DNA of 29,708 bases from a virus (taxonomy: Duplodnaviria; Heunggongvirae; Uroviricota; Caudoviricetes): the IMG/VR virus record IMGVR_UViG_2778261227_000004. One strand, 5' to 3'. The first letter of the stretch is position 1, and every line of letters begins with the position of its first letter. The notes under the pieces were generated by a model that was not told the origin of the DNA, made no database searches, and was given only the letters and a program-made list of their open reading frames with translations. Shown one piece after another: positions 19,564 to 27,066 of this stretch. Position numbers and translations under genes: made by a program.

Positions 19564-19842
19564 TCAGCGCCTTCGTAATACAAGGATTTTTGATACGTTC
19601 CCGCGTGCTCGTATCACCAGCACGCAGAACACCAGGTTAATCAGGACGACCAGCCAGTTACCGGGTGGAAAGCGACCACACAGATAACAAAGCGGCGCAA
19701 AGGCATAAAGCAGCATCAGCAGCCAGGCCAGCCACGACATCAGCGGTTTATGTCTCGACTCACCACGACGATAAAAAAAGAGCGTCAGCACGATAACCGT
19801 GCTTAACACCACATTCAGTAATCCGGGAAGGTTACTTAACAT
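19564..19842 (-). CDS. membrane protein in lysis cassette (about 3 TM; holin or antiholin-like)
   Basis: ATG 19842 preceded by GGAGG; MLSNLPGLLNVVLSTVIVLTLFFY...LAWLLMLLYAFAPLCYL...LVVLINLVFCVLVI; overlaps the upstream gene by about 11 nt. Confidence 0.55.
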   Translation of the reverse strand: MLSNLPGLLNVVLSTVIVLTLFFYRRGESRHKPLMSWLAWLLMLLYAFAPLCYLCGRFPPGNWLVVLINLVFCVLVIRARGNVSKILVLRRR

Positions 19843-20221
19843 TACCGCCTCCACCCCGCAGACGGGAGAACAGCCCGGATACCAGCGATGCGATATCCTG
19901 CTGGTGGATGAATGAGAGAATCTTCACCGACACCACCGATACCAGTACCGCGCAAAGCGCGTCGAGAGATGTGCTGTGGAGATTCAGTTTTTCAACCAGG
20001 TAAGACGCCATCACATCCGCCCCCAGCACGCCAACAATGAACGACACCAGAAAATGCGCCGCCACACGCCAGGCTGAAAGCTGCTGCGGCATCGTTGCCA
20101 CAAATAACGCCCCGGCGAACGCACCAAACACAATCCCGAAATCCGTTCCGGTAAACAGCCCGAATACCGTCGCCCCGCCGAGCGCCGCAGCCGTGCCGGA
20201 ACCGGACAAGGGTTCAGACAT
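19832..20221 (-). CDS. putative holin (129 aa, Gly/Ala-rich TM segments)
   Basis: ATG 20221 preceded by CAGGAGA; MSEPLSGSGTAAALGGATVFGLFTGTDFGIVFGAFAGALFVA...; first gene of the lysis cassette. Confidence 0.6.
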   Translation of the reverse strand: MSEPLSGSGTAAALGGATVFGLFTGTDFGIVFGAFAGALFVATMPQQLSAWRVAAHFLVSFIVGVLGADVMASYLVEKLNLHSTSLDALCAVLVSVVSVKILSFIHQQDIASLVSGLFSRLRGGGGNVK

Positions 20222-20236
20222 ACTTTTTTCTCCTGT

Positions 20237-20263
20237 AAATAAAAAAGGGCCACCAGCGGCCCG
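20237..20263 (-). terminator. rho-independent terminator just upstream of the holin RBS
   Basis: Minus strand GGGCCGCTGGTGGCCC followed by TTTTTTATTT; a second hairpin AAAGGCA...TGCCTTT lies at 20279-20300. Confidence 0.65.
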
Positions 20264-20310
20264 TAAAAAACACCCCGTCAAAGGCACCCGCAGATGCCTT
20301 TTGTGTGGTG

Positions 20311-20463
20311 TTATTCAGATTTGCGCAGTAAAGGGCGGAGCACGACCAGCGCCATCGCCACCAGCACGCCATCGGCAAGCACTGACATCAGGCGTCCGGT
20401 GAAATCCACCGCCACTACCAGAAACAGCAGGATGGCAGCCAGTACAAGACGCGCACTTTTCAC
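20311..20463 (-). CDS. 50-aa hydrophobic membrane protein, coupled to the TerB-like gene
   Basis: GTG at 20463 overlaps the TerB-like TGA (GTGA); VKSARLVLAAILLFLVVAVDFTGRLMSVLADGVLVAMALVVLRPLLRKSE. Below the ORF-track cutoff. Confidence 0.4.
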   Translation of the reverse strand: MKSARLVLAAILLFLVVAVDFTGRLMSVLADGVLVAMALVVLRPLLRKSE

Positions 20464-20885
20464 AGGTACTGCTCCAGCGGTAGCTGAAGCGCCTGAGCAA
20501 TTTTCTTGAGCTGTGCTTCTTCATCCGGACCAATGCCATCCTGGTCAGCGATATCCAGACACAGGCACAGCACATTAACTGCGTCATCAGTACCGGCAAC
20601 ATCAGCCAGCTGGCGAAGGGCTTCAGCATTAGCAGAGCGCGGCGACGCTTCATAACGGGCGCGGATATTTGCACTCATTTGTGCAATCTCGCCGGAGAAC
20701 GGTGCAAAGGCAGGAAGTGCTGCAATGGTTTTCTCCAGTACTGCGATTTCTTTCGCGTCGCAGGTGCCGTCAGCGTATGCAATGGAATACGCACCCCAGA
20801 CGGTCGCCTCCACTGCGTCGCGGTTCTCCATCTTCTTCACTTCGGTAATGGCCTTGCGGGTTTTCTTTTTGAAAATACCAAACAT
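20460..20885 (-). CDS. TerB-like (tellurite-resistance TerB / DjlA N-terminal-like) domain protein, 141 aa
   Basis: ATG 20885 preceded by AAGGAAAAG; paired acidic motifs (...AYADGTCDAKEIAVLE... and ...LDIADQDGIGPDEEAQLKKIA...) typical of TerB-like domains. Confidence 0.55.
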   Translation of the reverse strand: MFGIFKKKTRKAITEVKKMENRDAVEATVWGAYSIAYADGTCDAKEIAVLEKTIAALPAFAPFSGEIAQMSANIRARYEASPRSANAEALRQLADVAGTDDAVNVLCLCLDIADQDGIGPDEEAQLKKIAQALQLPLEQYL

Positions 20886-21130
20886 CGTGACTTTTCCTTT
20901 TAGTGGGTGAGCCTGCGCCCGGGGGTGACCAGCCCACAGAGAAAGTCACACTGACCATCCCGTAAGCTCACCCCTGAAAGGCTCTGTGGTTTTTTGATAT
21001 GCGCCGGGCGCGGCGCGGATATAAAAGATTTAACGAGTTGTTTTTTCTGGTAAAAATATTACGTTATACATGGCGTCATAAGTCCGGACGCTTTCAATGA
21101 TTAGTAACGATTCTTCATAGAGGTTTTCAG

Positions 21131-21445
21131 ATGAATCAGCAATGTCCAGCATGTTACGCTCACGCCAAAGTGGAGCGCGGGCGTTTCAGAGACCTGACAA
21201 ATTTAAAATTTGATACTGAATACAACGATGGTGTTTTTGGCATGACCGATGGTGTCAGGGTTCACTGTCCGAAATGTGGAAAATACGGGTTGTATTTCGA
21301 TGACTTTCAAAAAATCCAGCAAGGGAAAATAAAACCGCAAGCAATTTCTGATTTTAAGAAAGCATACCCTGGGTGGCGAGGCATCATCTCATTACCATGC
21401 CGCCTAGATTCAAAACAATCAAAATCAAGTTTTGAAACCCCATAA
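21131..21445 (+). CDS. zinc-ribbon protein (CPAC...CPKC), 104 aa, plus-strand moron
   Basis: Opposite strand to the late operon; GAGG before ATG 21131; AT-rich upstream region; followed by a hairpin terminator; GC about 42 percent. Confidence 0.55.
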   Translation: MNQQCPACYAHAKVERGRFRDLTNLKFDTEYNDGVFGMTDGVRVHCPKCGKYGLYFDDFQKIQQGKIKPQAISDFKKAYPGWRGIISLPCRLDSKQSKSSFETP

Positions 21446-21454
21446 AACCACAAC

Positions 21455-21478
21455 CCGCATGGAGGCGGGTTTAATTGC
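21455..21478. terminator. bidirectional hairpin between the convergent zinc-ribbon gene and the methyltransferase
   Basis: ACCCGC-ATGGAG-GCGGGT stem-loop at 21459-21476 overlapping the methyltransferase stop. Confidence 0.5.
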
Positions 21479-22520
21479 ACATTGCCGAAATTTCACCGAC
21501 TGTCTGCTCAAACCGTTCAGTTTCAAGCTCAACGCCGATTACCCGACGCCCCAGCGCCATCGCCGCTTTTATTGTTGACCCGGATCCCATAAAGAAATCC
21601 GCAACCAAATCACCGGGGCGACTACTGGCCTCAATTATCTGCCGCAACATATCTGCCGGTTTTTCACAGGGATGTTTGCCCGGATAATACTGCACGGGCT
21701 TGTGCGTCCAGACATCCGTATACGGAACGGCAGCCGATACGGAAAAATAACGCCGCAGGGATTTGTACTCCTTCAGCAGGCTGGCATATTGCCGGTTCAG
21801 TTCACTGTATGTGCTGACCAGCTGGTGGTGTGGCTTTTCCAGTTCACCGCGCTGATGTTTTTCTGCTGCAACACGCGCAAACAACGTCTGTAATTTCAGA
21901 TAATCGCCTTCGTTCGGCAACTGCCACTGGCTGATACCAAACCAGTGCGAAGCCATGTTTTTCTTTCCGGTGGCTTCCGCTATCTGTTTTGACGTTATCC
22001 CCAGTGATTCACGCGCATCACGAAAGTAAGAAATCAGCGGGGCCATGACATGCTGTTTTAGCTCGCGCCCCTTTGCCGCATAGCCGTCATTTTTGGGCTG
22101 GTATGGCCCCTGATAATGTTCTGCAAACAGAATGCGTTCTGTTGCCGGGAAATACGCCCGCAGGCTTTCCTTGTTGCATCCGTTCCAGCGTCCGGACGGC
22201 TTCGCCCAGATAATGTGGTTCAGCACATTAAAGCGCTGACGCATCATGATTTCGATATCAGATGCCAGGCGATGACCACAGAACAGGTAGAGACTTCCGG
22301 CAGGTTTCAGTACCCGCCAGAATTGCGCCAGACACTGATCCAGCCATTTCAGGTAATCATCGTCACCCTTCCACTGGTTATCCCAGCCCTCGGGCTTCAC
22401 TTTAAAGTATGGCGGGTCTGTGACTATCAGATCGACAGAGTTTTCCGGTAAGGTCTGGATAAATTCCAGGCAATCAGCGTTGATTAACTCGCAACTGGAT
22501 ATTTTTACAGTATTAGCCAT
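21471..22520 (-). CDS. orphan DNA methyltransferase (N6-adenine/N4-cytosine class, DPPY motif)
   Basis: 349 aa; N-terminal catalytic motif ...VDLIVTDPPYF... and C-terminal AdoMet motif ...DLVADFFMGSGSTIKAA...; no adjacent restriction endonuclease gene. Confidence 0.85.
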   Translation of the reverse strand: MANTVKISSCELINADCLEFIQTLPENSVDLIVTDPPYFKVKPEGWDNQWKGDDDYLKWLDQCLAQFWRVLKPAGSLYLFCGHRLASDIEIMMRQRFNVLNHIIWAKPSGRWNGCNKESLRAYFPATERILFAEHYQGPYQPKNDGYAAKGRELKQHVMAPLISYFRDARESLGITSKQIAEATGKKNMASHWFGISQWQLPNEGDYLKLQTLFARVAAEKHQRGELEKPHHQLVSTYSELNRQYASLLKEYKSLRRYFSVSAAVPYTDVWTHKPVQYYPGKHPCEKPADMLRQIIEASSRPGDLVADFFMGSGSTIKAAMALGRRVIGVELETERFEQTVGEISAMCN

Positions 22521-22670
22521 AGATCAATAAGCACTTCTCTGATAGGCTCATACCGCTTTTGCGCAAAGCAGATGGGCCTGAGGTTTGCTTGTGACCCCAA
22601 CGCATGAGCAGATGGCTGGCAGGTGCCGCTAACACCCACCAGCCGCCCATTACCACAAATTAAAAAGCCT

Positions 22671-22868
22671 TCACTGCGGAAGGCGTCTGTAACAACCGAA
22701 CTGATAATCAGCCAGGCCCGCCATAACAAGCTGGGTCAGTATTAACTGGCAACGTTCGCGTGAAAGGTAAGTATTCTGCGCAATTTCCCCGACGGTCGCC
22801 GGTTCGGTGACGCTTAATTCATTAAACACCACTCTGGCGGTTTCGGTCATATCCTGCTGTTTTAGCAT
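22671..22868 (-). CDS. small HTH-like protein (65 aa)
   Basis: ...ATVGEIAQNTYLSRERCQLILTQLVMAGL... looks like a helix-turn-helix; first ORF after the putative tR'; its stop sits in a hairpin plus U-run (22662-22690). Confidence 0.45.
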   Translation of the reverse strand: MLKQQDMTETARVVFNELSVTEPATVGEIAQNTYLSRERCQLILTQLVMAGLADYQFGCYRRLPQ

Positions 22869-23061: not shown

Positions 23062-23098
23062 ATGCGCAAAATACACTTTTCAGTTCGGTTTTGCAATA
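23062..23098 (-). promoter_or_regulatory. candidate late promoter pR' (possible qut region)
   Basis: Minus strand TTGCAA, 17 nt, TATTTT at the 3' end of the Q-like gene. Confidence 0.4.
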
Positions 23099-23769
23099 TT
23101 TAACCTGGTATTAGATACCTTTTGTTGTGAACGTAAGTGCATTGCCGATATAAGCGCATCTTTGTCCAGGCCTGTAACACAGTCACGCATAATCTCCCAG
23201 CGAGGTCGGTATGTCTCTGTCCATGTGGATTTAGCAACCCCCATCAATTCAGCCAGTTCCTGATATTCATAAGTCTCACTCCCAGCCAGCTCGCTCTTCA
23301 CATCCTGCGCCGCCAGCCAGATTAATTTTTTCAGGCGTTCCCGTGTTTTCTCCGCAATTTTTCTGGTACCAGATTGCGCGTTAAATTCATTCCACGCCCA
23401 CTGTGTTATCGCAATCTGGTGTTCCCAGCAAATGCTGCCGCTGTAACACCACAGCAACCAGGCTTTATGGTGTTCTTCAAGAGACAGAACTGCCCGTCGC
23501 CATGATGATGTCGAGAACTCAACCTGACTCACCAGAGGAATAGACGTCCCCTTTGCCAGCGATTGTTTCCCCGGGATTGGTGGATTATCCCGCGTGATCA
23601 TTTTTCCGGTCACTTCATCACGGTACCGGATTTTTTTACGCCTGTAACGCCCTGTATCGAACATGGCATTCTCCTGCCAGGCTTCAAGCTGACCTTTTGT
23701 TGCCCCACTCAAATCGGCGGTGGCGATAATGAGCTGCTCACGAACAAACTGTAAATACTGGTTATTCAT
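23080..23769 (-). CDS. putative late-gene antiterminator (Q-like), 229 aa
   Basis: ATG 23769 overlaps the rusA stop (ATGA). Assignment rests on synteny (rusA, then this gene, then promoter and terminator, then late and lysis genes); the sequence is not lambda Q-like by eye. Confidence 0.45.
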   Translation of the reverse strand: MNNQYLQFVREQLIIATADLSGATKGQLEAWQENAMFDTGRYRRKKIRYRDEVTGKMITRDNPPIPGKQSLAKGTSIPLVSQVEFSTSSWRRAVLSLEEHHKAWLLWCYSGSICWEHQIAITQWAWNEFNAQSGTRKIAEKTRERLKKLIWLAAQDVKSELAGSETYEYQELAELMGVAKSTWTETYRPRWEIMRDCVTGLDKDALISAMHLRSQQKVSNTRLNIAKPN

Positions 23770-24121
23770 GCGCACTCCAGCTCTGTGATTTTTATCCCCA
23801 GTCGACCACCAGGAACAGGCAGACCGCGCACAATATTAATTTCATCAAACTGCTCGTCGTCGATAAGCAACCCCGCATGCGTCAGCGCATCCAGCGGTGC
23901 TTTCAGGATATTGTCCAGGTCCCGACGGCGCTTATCCGGCGGCTCTGCAATAATTTTTATTGCCAGCCTTCCGGACTTAATTTCAGTCGCTGCTGGCGAA
24001 CAATAAGTGCCACATCACGGCGATAACGCTCACCGGCTTTTGATACAAAATATGTGCTGCCACGACGTCGCCAGTAGGTGTTCACCGTTGGCGGGTAAGG
24101 CAAAACAAACTCTATACGCAT
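23766..24121 (-). pseudogene. rusA: Holliday junction resolvase RusA, disrupted by a frameshift
   Basis: From ATG 24121 (RBS AAGAGG): MRIEFVLPYPPTVNTYWRRRGSTYFVSKAGERYRRDVALIVRQQRLKLSPEGWQ, then stop. The -1 frame continues ...LAIKIIAEPPDKRRRDLDNILKAPLDALTHAGLLIDDEQFDEINIVRGLPVPGGRLGIKITELECA. Both halves match RusA; the span is 356 nt, not a multiple of three. Confidence 0.65.
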
Positions 24122-24133
24122 CAGTAACCTCTT

Positions 24134-25183
24134 TTACCCGAGCACGCCGGTTGCAAAGGCGTGATCAAGAAAACGAAAAATTAAATCAATCTGGGAACCA
24201 TGCTTTTCTTCGAACGCCAGCGGATCCGCATGAAGCTCGTTGTGATGCTCCCGACACAACGGTAGCGTGAAAATATCGTGGGATTTTGTTCCCATTCCAC
24301 CCTGACCATGACCAATCAGGTGATGGGGATCGTCGGCTGGCTTACCACAACACGCGCACGGCTGTGTCTTTACCCAGCGCGTGTATTTCTCATTCATCCA
24401 GCGGCGACGTTTAGGTCGCCTCATGAAAGATTCAGGAGACTCCGGATCTACGGCAATGCTGACCACCGTCTTTTCCTGTGGTGCGTTCTGTTGCTGGTGG
24501 ACGTGAGGCAACTGCGCAAGATTTTTTGTGCGCTGCTTCAGTATGCTGGTGGCGGTCTGCTCTCCCGGTATGATGTCGCTTTCGCGGTACACCGAGCGGA
24601 TTTTTTCCGCACGTAATCCCAGCGAACGACGCAATACTGTCTCCGGTAGCGCGTCCGCCACCTGATTGCAGACTGCCCACCAGGATAATTCAGCCAGCGA
24701 TAATTCCCGCTCCTGTGTGCCATTCATTGCCTGGCGTATGACGTCAATCATCCATGCTGTCAGGTTTTGGTGAGCAAGTTGCCCGAGTGATTCGGAAGTC
24801 TGGTCACGCAGCTGGTTGTCGCAGTGCCAGCACAACACCATCGCGCCAGCACCGTAACGATGTATGACGGTTTCGCTGTGATGGTAGTCACCATGAGGCC
24901 ACTGGCAGGATTTAACGTGGCGCAATAGCCAGTCAGACAGTGCACCAGCACCGCCAGCAGCGCGAATCACCCGCTCATCGCTGAAAAATGGCAGCAGAGA
25001 TTTGTCTTCCGCCAGCGGCTGGCGAACGGCAGGAACGACTCCGGATGGCAGACCTCGCATGCTTTTTGGTTCCGGCTCCACCAGCACACGCCCCTGCATA
25101 AACAAAGGCATCGCATCAGGACCGGGCCTGAAAAGTACAATCCCCAGACGGTGAGCAATTTCAGGAGTCACTAATACCCGCAC
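24134..25183 (-). CDS. DUF968-like prophage protein
   Basis: GTG 25183 preceded by GGAGGT; C-terminal ...CACCGKPADDPHHLIGHGQGGMGTKSHDIFTLPLCREHHNELH... recalled as DUF968, common beside rusA/Q in lambdoid prophages. Confidence 0.55.
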   Translation of the reverse strand: MRVLVTPEIAHRLGIVLFRPGPDAMPLFMQGRVLVEPEPKSMRGLPSGVVPAVRQPLAEDKSLLPFFSDERVIRAAGGAGALSDWLLRHVKSCQWPHGDYHHSETVIHRYGAGAMVLCWHCDNQLRDQTSESLGQLAHQNLTAWMIDVIRQAMNGTQERELSLAELSWWAVCNQVADALPETVLRRSLGLRAEKIRSVYRESDIIPGEQTATSILKQRTKNLAQLPHVHQQQNAPQEKTVVSIAVDPESPESFMRRPKRRRWMNEKYTRWVKTQPCACCGKPADDPHHLIGHGQGGMGTKSHDIFTLPLCREHHNELHADPLAFEEKHGSQIDLIFRFLDHAFATGVLG

Positions 25184-26363: not shown

Positions 26364-26704
26364 CGTAAAACATCCTCCACGCTTATCAATCCGTTCCGCT
26401 CCAGATAACTCATCGCCTTATCCGGTAATTTGCAGTCTGGCTTCGCTTTCCTCAGTTGCCAGGCTAACTGCTTTACCTGCATAGTTAACTCGTCGACCAG
26501 ACGCTGATACCCCACTGGTTTGTATTCATGCAATTTACCGGCTGGCTCTGCTGCCAGCGATACCAGTGCGATTTCCAGAACAGCAATATCCATCTTATAT
26601 GTGCGGATGATGTCATTGTCGATTGTGCCCGGTATGCACAATCTCTGTGCTTCAATAGTCTCCTCTGCGTGAGCTATTAACTGCTCTCTGGTAAAAGTCG
26701 TCAT
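26360..26704 (-). CDS. hypothetical 114-aa protein
   Basis: ATG 26704 overlaps the HNH stop (ATGA); family not recognised. Confidence 0.5.
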
Positions 26705-27066
26705 GCCGTAGCCCCTTCTTGATATTTTTCAAACCAGAACACAACTGGGTCAGATTTCATTTCAACCAATCCCATACGAACCAGCGCCTTGCCTTTCCCG
26801 GACGCAAGGAATTCACGACGACCATCACTGATAATTCGCCGATAATCTTCCAGGCTACTGCAATGCTTGTGCAGATTGCATGGGTGGCATGCCGGAACCA
26901 TGTTGGATATATCGTCACGTTCCTGGTGAAGCATATTTCCATCAAAACGGATGACCGGTTTTACATGGTCTGCATGCCACTTTTCGCCAAGTTCGCAGCC
27001 GCAATAAGCGCAGCGACCACCGAACTTCATGCGCAGTTCTGCACGTTGTTTTTTCGTCAGTGACAT
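26701..27066 (-). CDS. HNH endonuclease (121 aa)
   Basis: C-x2-C ... HADH ... N-x4-C-x2-CN pattern: ...[23 protein letters not shown]...[13 protein letters not shown]... Confidence 0.75.

What the first reader, a model, noticed from the sequence alone, without database searches (positions are those of the whole stretch)
20311..21445. Terminator-bounded cargo island: TerB-like protein plus tiny membrane partner, divergent from a zinc-ribbon gene
Between terminators at 20237-20263 and 21455-21478 sits a 1.2-kb island. On the minus strand a 141-aa TerB-like protein is coupled (GTGA overlap) to a 50-aa membrane protein; on the plus strand a 104-aa zinc-ribbon protein has its own AT-rich promoter region and lower GC. 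The shared 245-bp intergenic region holds a structured leader. TerB-like domains are known in membrane-associated stress and phage-resistance contexts, but I do not know this three-gene arrangement as a named system, so it is a candidate for an uncharacterised prophage-encoded exclusion or defence module.
Basis: partly seen in the sequence, partly recalled or inferred. Interest (0 to 1): 0.55.

Follow-up and report, generated by a model that had tools for sequence, protein, structure and literature searches.

The report
Phage P1-type tciAB cassette plus orphan gene
The "island" is two unrelated pieces lying side by side in a prophage's late operon: a common two-gene cassette already named tciA-tciB in phage P1, whose function has never been tested, and a rare orphan zinc-ribbon gene, so it is ordinary and not a new three-gene defence system.

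Summary
The window is a lambdoid/phiP27-like E. coli prophage, 100% identical to strain RM8082.

The 141-aa and 50-aa genes are homologues of phage P1 tciA (86% identical; TerB family) and tciB (46% identical; DUF3927). With a 141-nt structured leader and a terminator they form one conserved 793-bp cassette (20234-21026). It lies between antiterminator Q and the holin genes. It matches 699 of 5,426 complete E. coli genomes.

The zinc-ribbon gene lies in a separate hypervariable slot (21027-21497). That slot holds tRNAs or a toxin-antitoxin pair in related prophages. The gene occurs in only 3 of 5,426 genomes. It looks like a real gene (dN/dS 0.28) but is an orphan and not a partner of tciAB.

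The TerB+DUF3927 pair also occurs in virulent N4-like and jumbo phages. In P1 it sits in the repressor-controlled ban operon. No PADLOC defence model matches any of the three proteins.

The most likely reading is an inner-membrane accessory module made during lytic growth. Exclusion or envelope protection is plausible but untested.

The leader hairpin is conserved and is not in Rfam; that is the only modestly new observation.

The parts
20237..20262 (-). Intrinsic terminator that closes the tciAB cassette (stem GGGCCGCTGGTGGCCC, then TTTTTTATTT). It lies 16 nt upstream of the holin start (20221). A second hairpin (about 20281-20300) precedes it.
   Evidence: scan; sequence. It lies inside the conserved cassette block that begins at 20234 in a prophage with an unrelated holin (L008).
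20311..20463 (-). tciB: a 50-aa DUF3927 small inner-membrane protein, predicted to be a two-helix hairpin. Its GTG start overlaps the tciA stop (GTGA).
   Evidence: PF13064, 53.5 bits; phrog_1470 'TciB-like'; PGAP 'DUF3927 family protein'; 46% identical to P1 TciB.
20460..20885 (-). tciA: a 141-aa TerB-family protein. The model is all-helical. It keeps two conserved D-G...E motifs (D39 G40 E46; G117 E122) and a conserved hydrophobic-plus-basic N-terminus (MFGIFKKK).
20886..21026 (-). Conserved 141-nt leader of tciA: a small GC hairpin (GCGCCGCGCCCGGCGC), an A-run, then a long imperfect hairpin of about 83 nt, followed by an exposed Shine-Dalgarno sequence (AAGGA).
   Evidence: z -2.5; 78-98% identical even where TciA is only 42-43% identical; 59 distinct sequences, 99% of pair cells paired, all 15 variable pairs kept through G-U; no Rfam family.
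21027..21497 (.). Hypervariable slot between the DNA methylase module and the tciAB cassette. Here it is a low-GC insert carrying the zinc-ribbon ORF. Related prophages hold tRNA genes or a RelE/ParE-type toxin-antitoxin pair in this slot.
   Evidence: breakpoints; GC; other contents of the slot; 3 of 5,426 genomes.
21131..21445 (+). Orphan 104-aa CxxC...CxxC protein, a putative zinc ribbon. It is probably a real gene, is unrelated to tciAB, and has no known function.
   Evidence: only sub-threshold zinc-ribbon matches; no phage match; 3 protein clusters among 5.8 billion; dN/dS 0.28 against an 87%-identical copy; AF2 model unusable, pLDDT 41.6.
21452..21471 (.). Hairpin between the convergent methylase gene and zinc-ribbon gene. 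It is an intrinsic terminator for the minus-strand methylase transcript (tail GTGGTTTTAT) and has a poor U-tract on the plus strand.

Best explanation
The region holds two independent pieces of phage cargo in the late operon of a lambdoid/phiP27-like prophage.

Piece 1 (20234-21026) is a copy of the widespread tciA-tciB cassette first named in phage P1.
- Shown: TciA is a soluble TerB-fold protein with two conserved acidic D-G...E motifs.
- Shown: TciB is a translationally coupled DUF3927 mini-protein with two hydrophobic segments.
- Shown: a conserved structured 5' leader and a terminator travel with the two genes.
- Shown: the cassette sits on the Q-to-lysis strand with at least three intrinsic terminators along the way.

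Inferred: it is transcribed mainly by Q-modified polymerase together with the lysis genes. TciA is held at the cytoplasmic face of the inner membrane, by its hydrophobic-plus-basic N-terminus and/or by TciB. There the pair modifies or guards the envelope of the infected cell. The most likely role is exclusion of superinfecting phage or pore-forming colicins, or protection against membrane damage, echoing the phenotypes of the ter operon.

Piece 2 (21027-21497) is a rare, low-GC orphan gene for a CxxC...CxxC protein. It replaced the tRNA or terminator segment that other prophages carry in this slot. It is not functionally linked to tciAB.

The confidence given applies to the identity and architecture. 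The specific biochemical role deserves only about 0.3.
For: Identity:
- Searches give the TerB, DUF3927 and PHROG matches, 85.8% identity to P1 TciA and 46% to P1 TciB.
- Searches support the TerB-like fold.

Cassette unit and abundance:
- One search gives the breakpoints at 20234 and 21026.
- One search finds the cassette in 699 of 5,426 genomes, up to 6 places per genome, with 171 places on plasmids.

Late-operon position behind Q and ahead of holins of different families.

Terminators along the minus strand.

In related phages the leader directly follows an intrinsic terminator, and no promoter consensus is found in it.

The pair is conserved in virulent phages as well:
- These are an N4-like Salmonella phage, an Erwinia jumbo phage, a Pseudomonas Nickievirus and Pantoea phage LIET2.
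- Three of these four small ORFs reach Pfam's DUF3927 threshold. The Erwinia one is sub-threshold (E 0.012).

In P1 and P7 the pair lies downstream of the C1-controlled Pban promoters and upstream of ban.

TerB proteins are reported to be membrane-associated or amphitropic in papers read.

Independence of the zinc-ribbon gene.
Against: - No experiment on TciA or TciB was found. The P1 names are 'by homology'. A CRISPRi screen scored the P1 genes non-essential.
- Transcription by read-through is inferred only. The strong terminator between tciB and the holin is also what an autonomously expressed moron would carry, and a weak or non-sigma-70 promoter in the leader cannot be excluded.
- Physical interaction of TciA with TciB was not tested. 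P1 and P7 combine nearly the same TciB with TciA alleles that are 86% and 35% identical to this one, which argues against tight co-evolution.
- In 21 of 99 viral contigs tciA is frameshifted while the tciB ORF is intact, so the cassette is often decaying.
Confidence: 0.7

Rival explanations
1. The three genes together form a defence or exclusion system that the prophage expresses in the lysogen to protect its host from other phages.
For: - TerB domains occur in the validated defence systems Bunzi, Shango and Dionysus.
- The ter operon is reported to confer phage inhibition (paper read).
- The cassette ends with its own strong terminator, which would shield the lysis genes from prophage-state transcription.
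- The neighbouring slot carries toxin-antitoxin genes in a related phage.
Against: - No PADLOC model matches any of the three proteins at E up to 1.
- The zinc-ribbon gene is unlinked: 3 against 699 genomes.
- No promoter consensus is found in the leader.
- The same pair is carried by strictly virulent phages.
- In P1 the pair is behind C1-repressed promoters.
Confidence: 0.12
2. This is the counter-defence reading. The phage TerB-like protein, tethered by TciB, mimics or titrates host TerB-based membrane-surveillance systems (the ter operon, Bunzi, Shango, Dionysus) so that they do not fire during infection.
For: - The pair occurs in both virulent and temperate phages and is placed for expression in lytic growth.
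- It is a stand-alone TerB domain without any effector domain.
- The hosts' TerB defence systems are thought to watch the membrane.
Against: - This is purely inferential.
- TciA does not match the Bunzi or Shango profiles in PADLOC.
- Frequent pseudogenisation in E. coli prophages suggests weak selection there.
Confidence: 0.1
3. This is the lysis-timing reading. TciAB stabilises the energised membrane or acts like an antiholin, so that the holins encoded immediately downstream do not trigger too early.
For: In lambdoid phages the cassette lies directly upstream of holins of unrelated families (Phage_holin_8 plus 3_7 here; a class II holin; lambda S-type). It would be made from the same late transcript.
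Against: - In P1, P7, N4-like, jumbo and Pantoea phages the pair is not next to lysis genes.
- Many lambdoid phages lack it.
- P1 knock-down shows no essentiality.
Confidence: 0.08
4. This is the toxin-antitoxin reading. The small hydrophobic TciB is a membrane toxin and TciA is its neutralising partner, an addiction or abortive-infection pair.
For: The pair consists of two small, overlapping, co-translated genes, one of which is a short hydrophobic peptide.
Against: - 21 of 99 viral contigs keep an intact tciB ORF behind a frameshifted tciA. This would be hard to tolerate if TciB were toxic on its own, although most of these contigs are one lineage and loss of translational coupling may silence tciB.
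- The pair is carried by virulent phages.
- There is no match to defence or toxin-antitoxin models.
Confidence: 0.04
5. This is the literal reading of the annotation: tellurite or metal resistance conferred on the host.
For: - The database names say so.
- One Vibrio phage places a TerC/Alx membrane protein between two TerB genes.
- The acidic motifs are conserved.
Against: - None of the other ter genes (terZ, A, C, D, E, F) is nearby. The neighbours are Q, a methylase, holins and an endolysin.
- The authors of a phage study judged a solitary phage terB unlikely to give resistance.
Confidence: 0.04

Closest known systems
[quoted passage not shown]
   Same: - TciA has the same length (141 aa) and is 85.8% identical.
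- TciB belongs to the same DUF3927 family (46% identical).
- Gene order and start/stop coupling are the same.
   Different: - There is no tciC; only 48 nt lie between tciB and the terminator, and one search finds no match.
- The context differs: a Q-dependent late operon next to holins here, against the C1-controlled ban operon flanked by tRNA genes in P1.
- P1 lacks the 141-nt leader.
TerB of the terZABCDEF tellurite-resistance / phage-inhibition / colicin-resistance operon (IncHI2 plasmids, O157 islands)
   Same: It has the Pfam TerB domain above threshold and a TerB-like fold.
   Different: It is a stand-alone gene with a DUF3927 partner. No TerZ, A, C, D, E or F is present. Sequence similarity is too low for a PDB sequence hit.
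TerB-containing anti-phage systems Bunzi (BnzA), Shango (SngA) and Dionysus (DinB)
   Same: They share a TerB domain and a presumed link to the membrane.
   Different: There is no match to PADLOC models. No helicase, ATPase, pore-forming or MAEBL partner genes are present. The cassette is carried by phages, including virulent ones, rather than by host defence islands.
Lambdoid 'morons' in the Q-to-lysis slot (for example stx, nanS-p and tRNA genes in Stx phages; from my own knowledge of Hendrix/Juhala moron concept)
   Same: - It shows presence/absence polymorphism among otherwise similar prophages, with sharp homology breakpoints.
- It has its own terminator.
- It lies in the same slot that carries tRNAs, nanS-p and toxin genes in relatives.
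   Different: An own promoter, part of the classical definition, was not detected.
Lar restriction-alleviation and YnfU/ECs_2282-type small zinc-ribbon prophage proteins (closest, weak, matches of the 104-aa ORF)
   Same: It is a small prophage protein with two CxxC pairs.
   Different: All matches are below threshold (E 0.01-0.07 against cut-offs of 26-37 bits). The spacing between the cysteine pairs is 37 residues. Membership is not supported.

Membership tests
P1-type tciAB cassette | A TciA homologue (TerB family, about 141-143 aa) | tested here: met
   85.8% identity over 100% of P1 TciA; phrog_632 E 4e-65.
P1-type tciAB cassette | An adjacent, translationally coupled TciB (DUF3927, about 50-55 aa) | tested here: met
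   PF13064 at 53.5 bits against a cut-off of 25; phrog_1470 'TciB-like' E 2.5e-24; GTGA overlap.
P1-type tciAB cassette | A third small gene, tciC | tested here: not met
   tblastn with P1 TciC matched only P1 itself, and there is no room between tciB and the terminator. tciC is also missing from most lambdoid copies, so it is an optional member.
TerB domain family (Pfam PF05099) | Profile score above Pfam's gathering threshold | tested here: met
   32.4 bits against 24.4, E 1.2e-7. The same domain is precomputed for most listed homologues.
TerB domain family (Pfam PF05099) | TerB-like helical fold | tested here: met
TerB domain family (Pfam PF05099) | Metal binding by the conserved acidic residues | not testable with these tools
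   D39, G40, E46, G117 and E122 are invariant in nine diverse phage homologues. Binding itself needs biochemistry.
ter operon (terZABCDEF) resistance system | Presence of the other ter genes (TerZ/TerD family, TerC, TerA, TerE, TerF) next to terB | tested here: not met
   The neighbours are Q, a DNA methylase, two holins and a GH108 endolysin.
Known anti-phage defence systems (PADLOC-DB v2, which includes Bunzi and Shango) | A match of any of the three proteins to a defence-system protein model | tested here: not met
   Zero families at E up to 1 for all three proteins. Dionysus (2025) is not in that library and was not tested.
Moron (autonomous cargo unit in a phage operon) | Presence/absence polymorphism with sharp boundaries between related phages | tested here: met
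   Conserved block 20234-21026; different flanks in L008, L002, L009, L010.
Moron (autonomous cargo unit in a phage operon) | Own terminator downstream | tested here: met
   Stem 20262-20247 plus a U-tract, inside the conserved block.
Moron (autonomous cargo unit in a phage operon) | Own promoter upstream | tested here: inconclusive
   The consensus scan finds none on the minus strand in 20886-21130. The candidate -10 region varies between leader types. Transcript mapping is needed.
Zinc-ribbon families (Lar_restr_allev, YnfU, InsA-type and others) for the 104-aa ORF | Profile score above the curated threshold | tested here: not met
   Best hits are 15.7 bits against 26.1 (Pfam) and 14 against 36 (NCBIfam). 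No PDB sequence relative. The AF2 model is too poor for a fold search.
Rfam RNA families (for the leader) | A covariance-model match at the gathering score | tested here: not met
   No hit in the whole window. In 20150-21550 only chance-level hits appear, and none lies in the leader.

The most novel reading that the evidence does not exclude
TciA-TciB would be a dedicated inner-membrane module that many temperate and virulent phages of Proteobacteria switch on during lytic growth. It would either shut the door on competitors (superinfection or colicin exclusion) or blind host TerB-type membrane-surveillance defences. In lambdoid phages its dose would be set by a cassette-specific structured leader RNA (an imperfect hairpin of about 83 nt, not in Rfam) that acts as a processing or translation-control element within the long late transcript.
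Probability: 0.2. Interest if true: 0.6.

Novelty: already known. Interest (0 to 1): 0.27.

Why it matters
As found, it matters little. It is a further copy of a cassette annotated since the P1 genome, and it is present in roughly one in eight complete E. coli genomes.

Three points are worth keeping:
1. A gene pair this common, shared by temperate, N4-like and jumbo phages, still has no tested function. A simple cloning and deletion study could settle whether solitary phage TerB proteins are exclusion, counter-defence or lysis-support factors.
2. The conserved leader hairpin is an unrecorded candidate regulatory RNA.
3. The slot between the methylase and tciAB is a clean example of a cargo hot spot, holding tRNAs, toxin-antitoxin pairs or orphan genes, where new small genes can be harvested.

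Tried and rejected
- Zinc-ribbon ORF. I found no phage match by tblastn. Only 3 protein clusters matched among 5.8 billion. There was no PDB sequence relative. The weak Lar / YnfU / InsA zinc-ribbon hits are below threshold and I rejected them as membership.
- Sequence search of TciA against the PDB gave only chance hits (PNPase, E 0.02).
- Rfam gave nothing in the leader at either gathering or permissive thresholds. No tRNA or tmRNA is present in the window.
- Covariation in the leader. There are no compensatory double changes, and shuffle controls do not separate the observed score from chance. The support is therefore conservation of pairing through G-U-compatible single changes only.
- Leader as an antisense (plus-strand) terminator. 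Rejected, because the T-run after CTCTGTGG exists only in this leader type and shrinks to two T in others.
- Upstream ORF in the leader (ATG at 20958, 62 aa). Rejected, because the start codon is GTG or ACG in other leader types.
- A 196-aa TerB-DUF3927 fusion protein (P0054). It is a single contig with a one-base shift at the junction, probably an error, and I did not use it as evidence.
- The P1 genome paper could not be read in the library. Statements about P1 rest on the GenBank annotation.
Full report
**1. Where we are**

The window is a lambdoid/phiP27-like prophage. Bases 20200-21500 are 100% identical to the chromosome of E. coli RM8082, a cattle isolate.

Read on the minus strand, the late region runs in this order:

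| Feature | Coordinates (minus strand unless stated) | Evidence |
|---|---|---|
| Antiterminator Q | 23775..23080 | phrog_304, E 1e-104, |
| 65-aa ORF ending in a terminator | terminator at 22684-22667 | |
| N6/N4 DNA methylase | 22520..21471 | |
| Hairpin | 21471-21452 | |
| 104-aa ORF, opposite strand | 21131..21445 (+) | |
| 245-bp spacer | 21130..20886 | |
| 141-aa gene | 20885..20460 | |
| 50-aa gene | 20463..20311 | |
| Terminator | 20262-20247 | |
| Two holins | 20221..19832 and 19854..19564 | Pfam Phage_holin_8 and Phage_holin_3_7, |
| GH108 endolysin | downstream of the holins | |

RefSeq's PGAP annotation of the identical genome calls the same genes.

**2.

- The ORF sizes, the GTGA overlap and the 245-bp spacer are as described.
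- The GC dip is real: 0.395-0.455 over 21000-21499 against 0.50-0.57 around it.
- Both hairpin terminators are present.
- One correction: the right-hand hairpin has its U-tract on the minus strand. It chiefly terminates the methylase transcript. On the plus strand, after the 104-aa gene, the tail is TAATTG.
- No sigma-70 consensus promoter was found in the spacer on either strand.

**3. Identity of the gene pair**

The 141-aa protein:
- It passes Pfam's TerB threshold (32.4 against 24.4 bits).
- It matches PHROG 632, 'tellurite resistance' (E 4e-65).
- It is 85.8% identical over its full length to TciA of phage P1.

The 50-aa protein:
- It passes the DUF3927 threshold (53.5 against 25 bits).
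- It matches PHROG 1470, 'TciB-like inhibition of cell division or resistance to colicin'.
- It is 46% identical to P1 TciB.

[quoted passage not shown] The papers I could read repeat this annotation and report no functional test. A CRISPRi screen scored all three genes non-essential. A survey of P1-like phage-plasmids found the operon variable and often lost. The pair is therefore named and known, although its function is unknown.

**4. Structure of TciA and TciB**

An AlphaFold2 model of TciA built on 30 homologues is confident (pLDDT 85.7). It has six helices and a disordered N-terminal ten residues.
- Foldseek agrees on 2h5n.

Across nine phage homologues down to 30% identity, the invariant residues are D23, A27, D39, G40, E46, D95, A113, G117, E122 and L126. 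These include two D-G...E motifs, one in each half of the protein. From memory (Anantharaman, Iyer and Aravind 2012) these acidic motifs are the proposed metal-binding site of TerB domains. I could not test binding.

The N-terminus (M-F/L-G/S-x-F/L followed by K/R-rich residues) is also conserved. I read this as a possible membrane-binding tail. That fits the reports cited that TerB proteins are membrane-associated or amphitropic.

TciB has two hydrophobic stretches (about residues 5-19 and 25-42) separated by DFTGR, with basic residues at both ends. This suggests a two-helix hairpin with both ends in the cytoplasm, read from the sequence.

**5. The 'island' is two independent units**

Pairwise comparison with eight related loci shows that homology on the tciA side always stops at window 21026. 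It resumes at about 21498-21521, in the methylase module. In a prophage with an unrelated holin (L008), homology starts at 20234. The conserved cassette is therefore 20234-21026: terminator, tciB, tciA and a 141-nt leader.

In other prophages the slot 21027-21497 holds tRNA genes or a RelE/ParE-type pair.

| Segment | Complete E. coli genomes with a match (of 5,426) | Other detail |
|---|---|---|
| tciAB cassette, 20234-21026 | 699 (165 at 80% coverage or more) | up to 6 places per genome; 171 places on plasmids |
| Zinc-ribbon slot, 21027-21497 | 3 | blastn in sensitive mode |

Among about 130 loci fetched at that point, the zinc-ribbon protein was found only in this strain's own genome. Two contigs fetched later through its few protein homologues carry it in the same slot.

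**6. The zinc-ribbon gene**

- It has CPAC and CPKC motifs 37 residues apart. It reaches no family threshold, has no phage match and has no PDB relative.
- Only three protein clusters match it among 5.8 billion, all from E. coli where a source is named.
- A copy 87% identical in DNA sits in the same place next to a methylase. Against that copy, dN/dS is 0.28 and third-position changes predominate. It is probably a real gene.
- Its structure could not be predicted (pLDDT 41.6). It is an orphan gene that landed in a cargo hot spot.

**7. The leader**

The tciA-proximal 141 nt of the spacer are 78-98% identical in phages whose TciA proteins are only 42-43% identical to this one: JLK-2012 and Evi.

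A motif scan of viral contigs returned 120 loci. Where a start codon could be located downstream of the motif, it opens a tciA gene or a frameshifted remnant of one.

In 59 distinct sequences RNAalifold predicts a small GC hairpin followed by a long imperfect hairpin.
- 99% of pair cells are paired, against 34-46% when partners are slid by 1-3 columns.
- All 15 variable pairs keep pairing through single G-U-compatible changes.
- Roughly a fifth of the cells are G-U, which would be mismatches on the other strand. This favours an RNA structure on the tciA sense strand.
- There is no compensatory double change, and the shuffle controls are not significant. The case rests on conservation, not covariation.

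The Shine-Dalgarno sequence is left unpaired. No Rfam family matches, and P1 has no such leader.

In the other phages the leader is immediately preceded by an intrinsic terminator. That terminator follows Q directly in LMessi and in Klebsiella phage 1 LV-2017, or follows tRNA genes elsewhere. In the window that terminator was replaced by the zinc-ribbon insert. I found no conserved -10 element.

**8. How it most likely works**

Shown:
- The cassette lies on the Q-to-lysis strand, with at least three intrinsic terminators between Q and the holin.
- In several phages it is the first gene pair after Q.

Inferred: it is transcribed by Q-modified, terminator-resistant polymerase together with the lysis genes.

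Also shown:
- In P1 and P7 the pair lies downstream of the C1-controlled Pban promoters and upstream of ban.
- In four virulent phages the TerB gene is followed at once by a small ORF. These are the N4-like Salmonella phage FSL SP-076, the Erwinia jumbo phage Caitlin, Pseudomonas phage ZY21 and Pantoea phage LIET2.
- That small ORF reaches Pfam's DUF3927 threshold in three of the four. In Caitlin it is sub-threshold (E 0.012).
- A Vibrio phage instead has an unrelated 83-aa ORF after its TerB gene, and has a TerC gene next to it.

A gene pair kept by virulent phages cannot serve only lysogenic conversion. I therefore favour a role in the infected cell at the inner membrane.

Which role that is remains inference. 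Exclusion of superinfecting phage or colicins would echo the phage-inhibition and colicin-resistance phenotypes reported for the ter operon (paper read). It would also parallel T4 Imm/Sp (own knowledge). The rivals are counter-defence against TerB-type host systems, lysis-timing support, a toxin-antitoxin pair, and literal tellurite resistance.

Evidence bearing on the rivals:
- No PADLOC model matches.
- In 21 of 99 assessable viral contigs tciA is frameshifted in an A-run while the tciB ORF stays intact. This argues weakly against TciB being a free-standing toxin. It also shows that the cassette often decays.

**9. Verdict**

The features are real, but the unit is not. The core is the already-named, very common tciAB cassette. 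The third gene is an unrelated orphan.

The defence idea is untested and not favoured in the form proposed. An exclusion role during lytic growth stays open.

The only modestly new items are the conserved leader hairpin and the finding that the TerB-DUF3927 pairing extends to virulent phages.

Noticed in passing
window about 20971 (leader); L011:3001-4507: In the PPompW prophages of O157-type strains only the first 52-56 nt of the tciA leader remain. They are followed directly by an IS110-family element, ISEc20. tciAB and the lysis genes are gone, and the terminase genes come next. The leader hairpin region may be an ISEc20 target site.
   Followed up: partly
window 20972-20975 (GGGG within the leader); alignment A2 columns 58-66: The G-run at the start of the long hairpin varies in length between otherwise near-identical leaders: GGGG-T-GAG, GGGGGGAG, GGGG-GAG, and 11-12 G in phage Evi, L031 and L085. 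This could be slippage or an assembly artefact. It would change the stem.
   Followed up: no
L014:2249-2420 and 20 other IMG/VR loci: One tciA lineage (the 143-aa allele) carries a +1 frameshift in the A-run of codons 6-8, giving the 16-aa ORF MFGIFGKKSPQSGNGN, and also later stops. tciB and the downstream nanS-p-like esterase gene stay intact. It is a pseudogene spread through one prophage lineage.
   Followed up: partly
L003:2501-3197 (P1) against L135:1201-1906 (P7): P1 and P7 carry nearly the same TciB and TciC. Their TciA alleles, however, are 86% and 35% identical to the window's TciA. Allele replacement has therefore occurred inside the cassette, upstream of tciB.
   Followed up: no
L136:1-1877 (Vibrio phage BUCT194): This N4-like Vibrio phage has TerB, a TerC/Alx membrane protein, a second TerB and an 83-aa ORF in a row. 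It is a phage-borne TerB-TerC association that may hint at a metal-homeostasis link.
   Followed up: no
window 22667-22684, 21452-21471, 20247-20262 (minus strand): Each module between Q and the holin (the 65-aa ORF, the methylase and tciAB) ends in its own intrinsic terminator. The late transcript therefore has to cross at least three terminators before it reaches the lysis genes.
   Followed up: partly
window 24134-25183 and 26701-27066 (minus strand): Two HNH-endonuclease-like ORFs lie upstream of Q: a DUF968/phrog_96 type of 349 aa and a phrog_2118 type of 121 aa. Neither was examined further.
   Followed up: no
L001 (Actinobacillus phage vB_Apl-pPE4, PP818812.1): A phage deposited as infecting Actinobacillus pleuropneumoniae carries a tciAB-holin block about 89-90% identical in DNA to this E. 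coli prophage, with TciA 99.3% identical. That is unexpected for a Pasteurellaceae phage and may point to an E. coli origin of that isolate.
   Followed up: no
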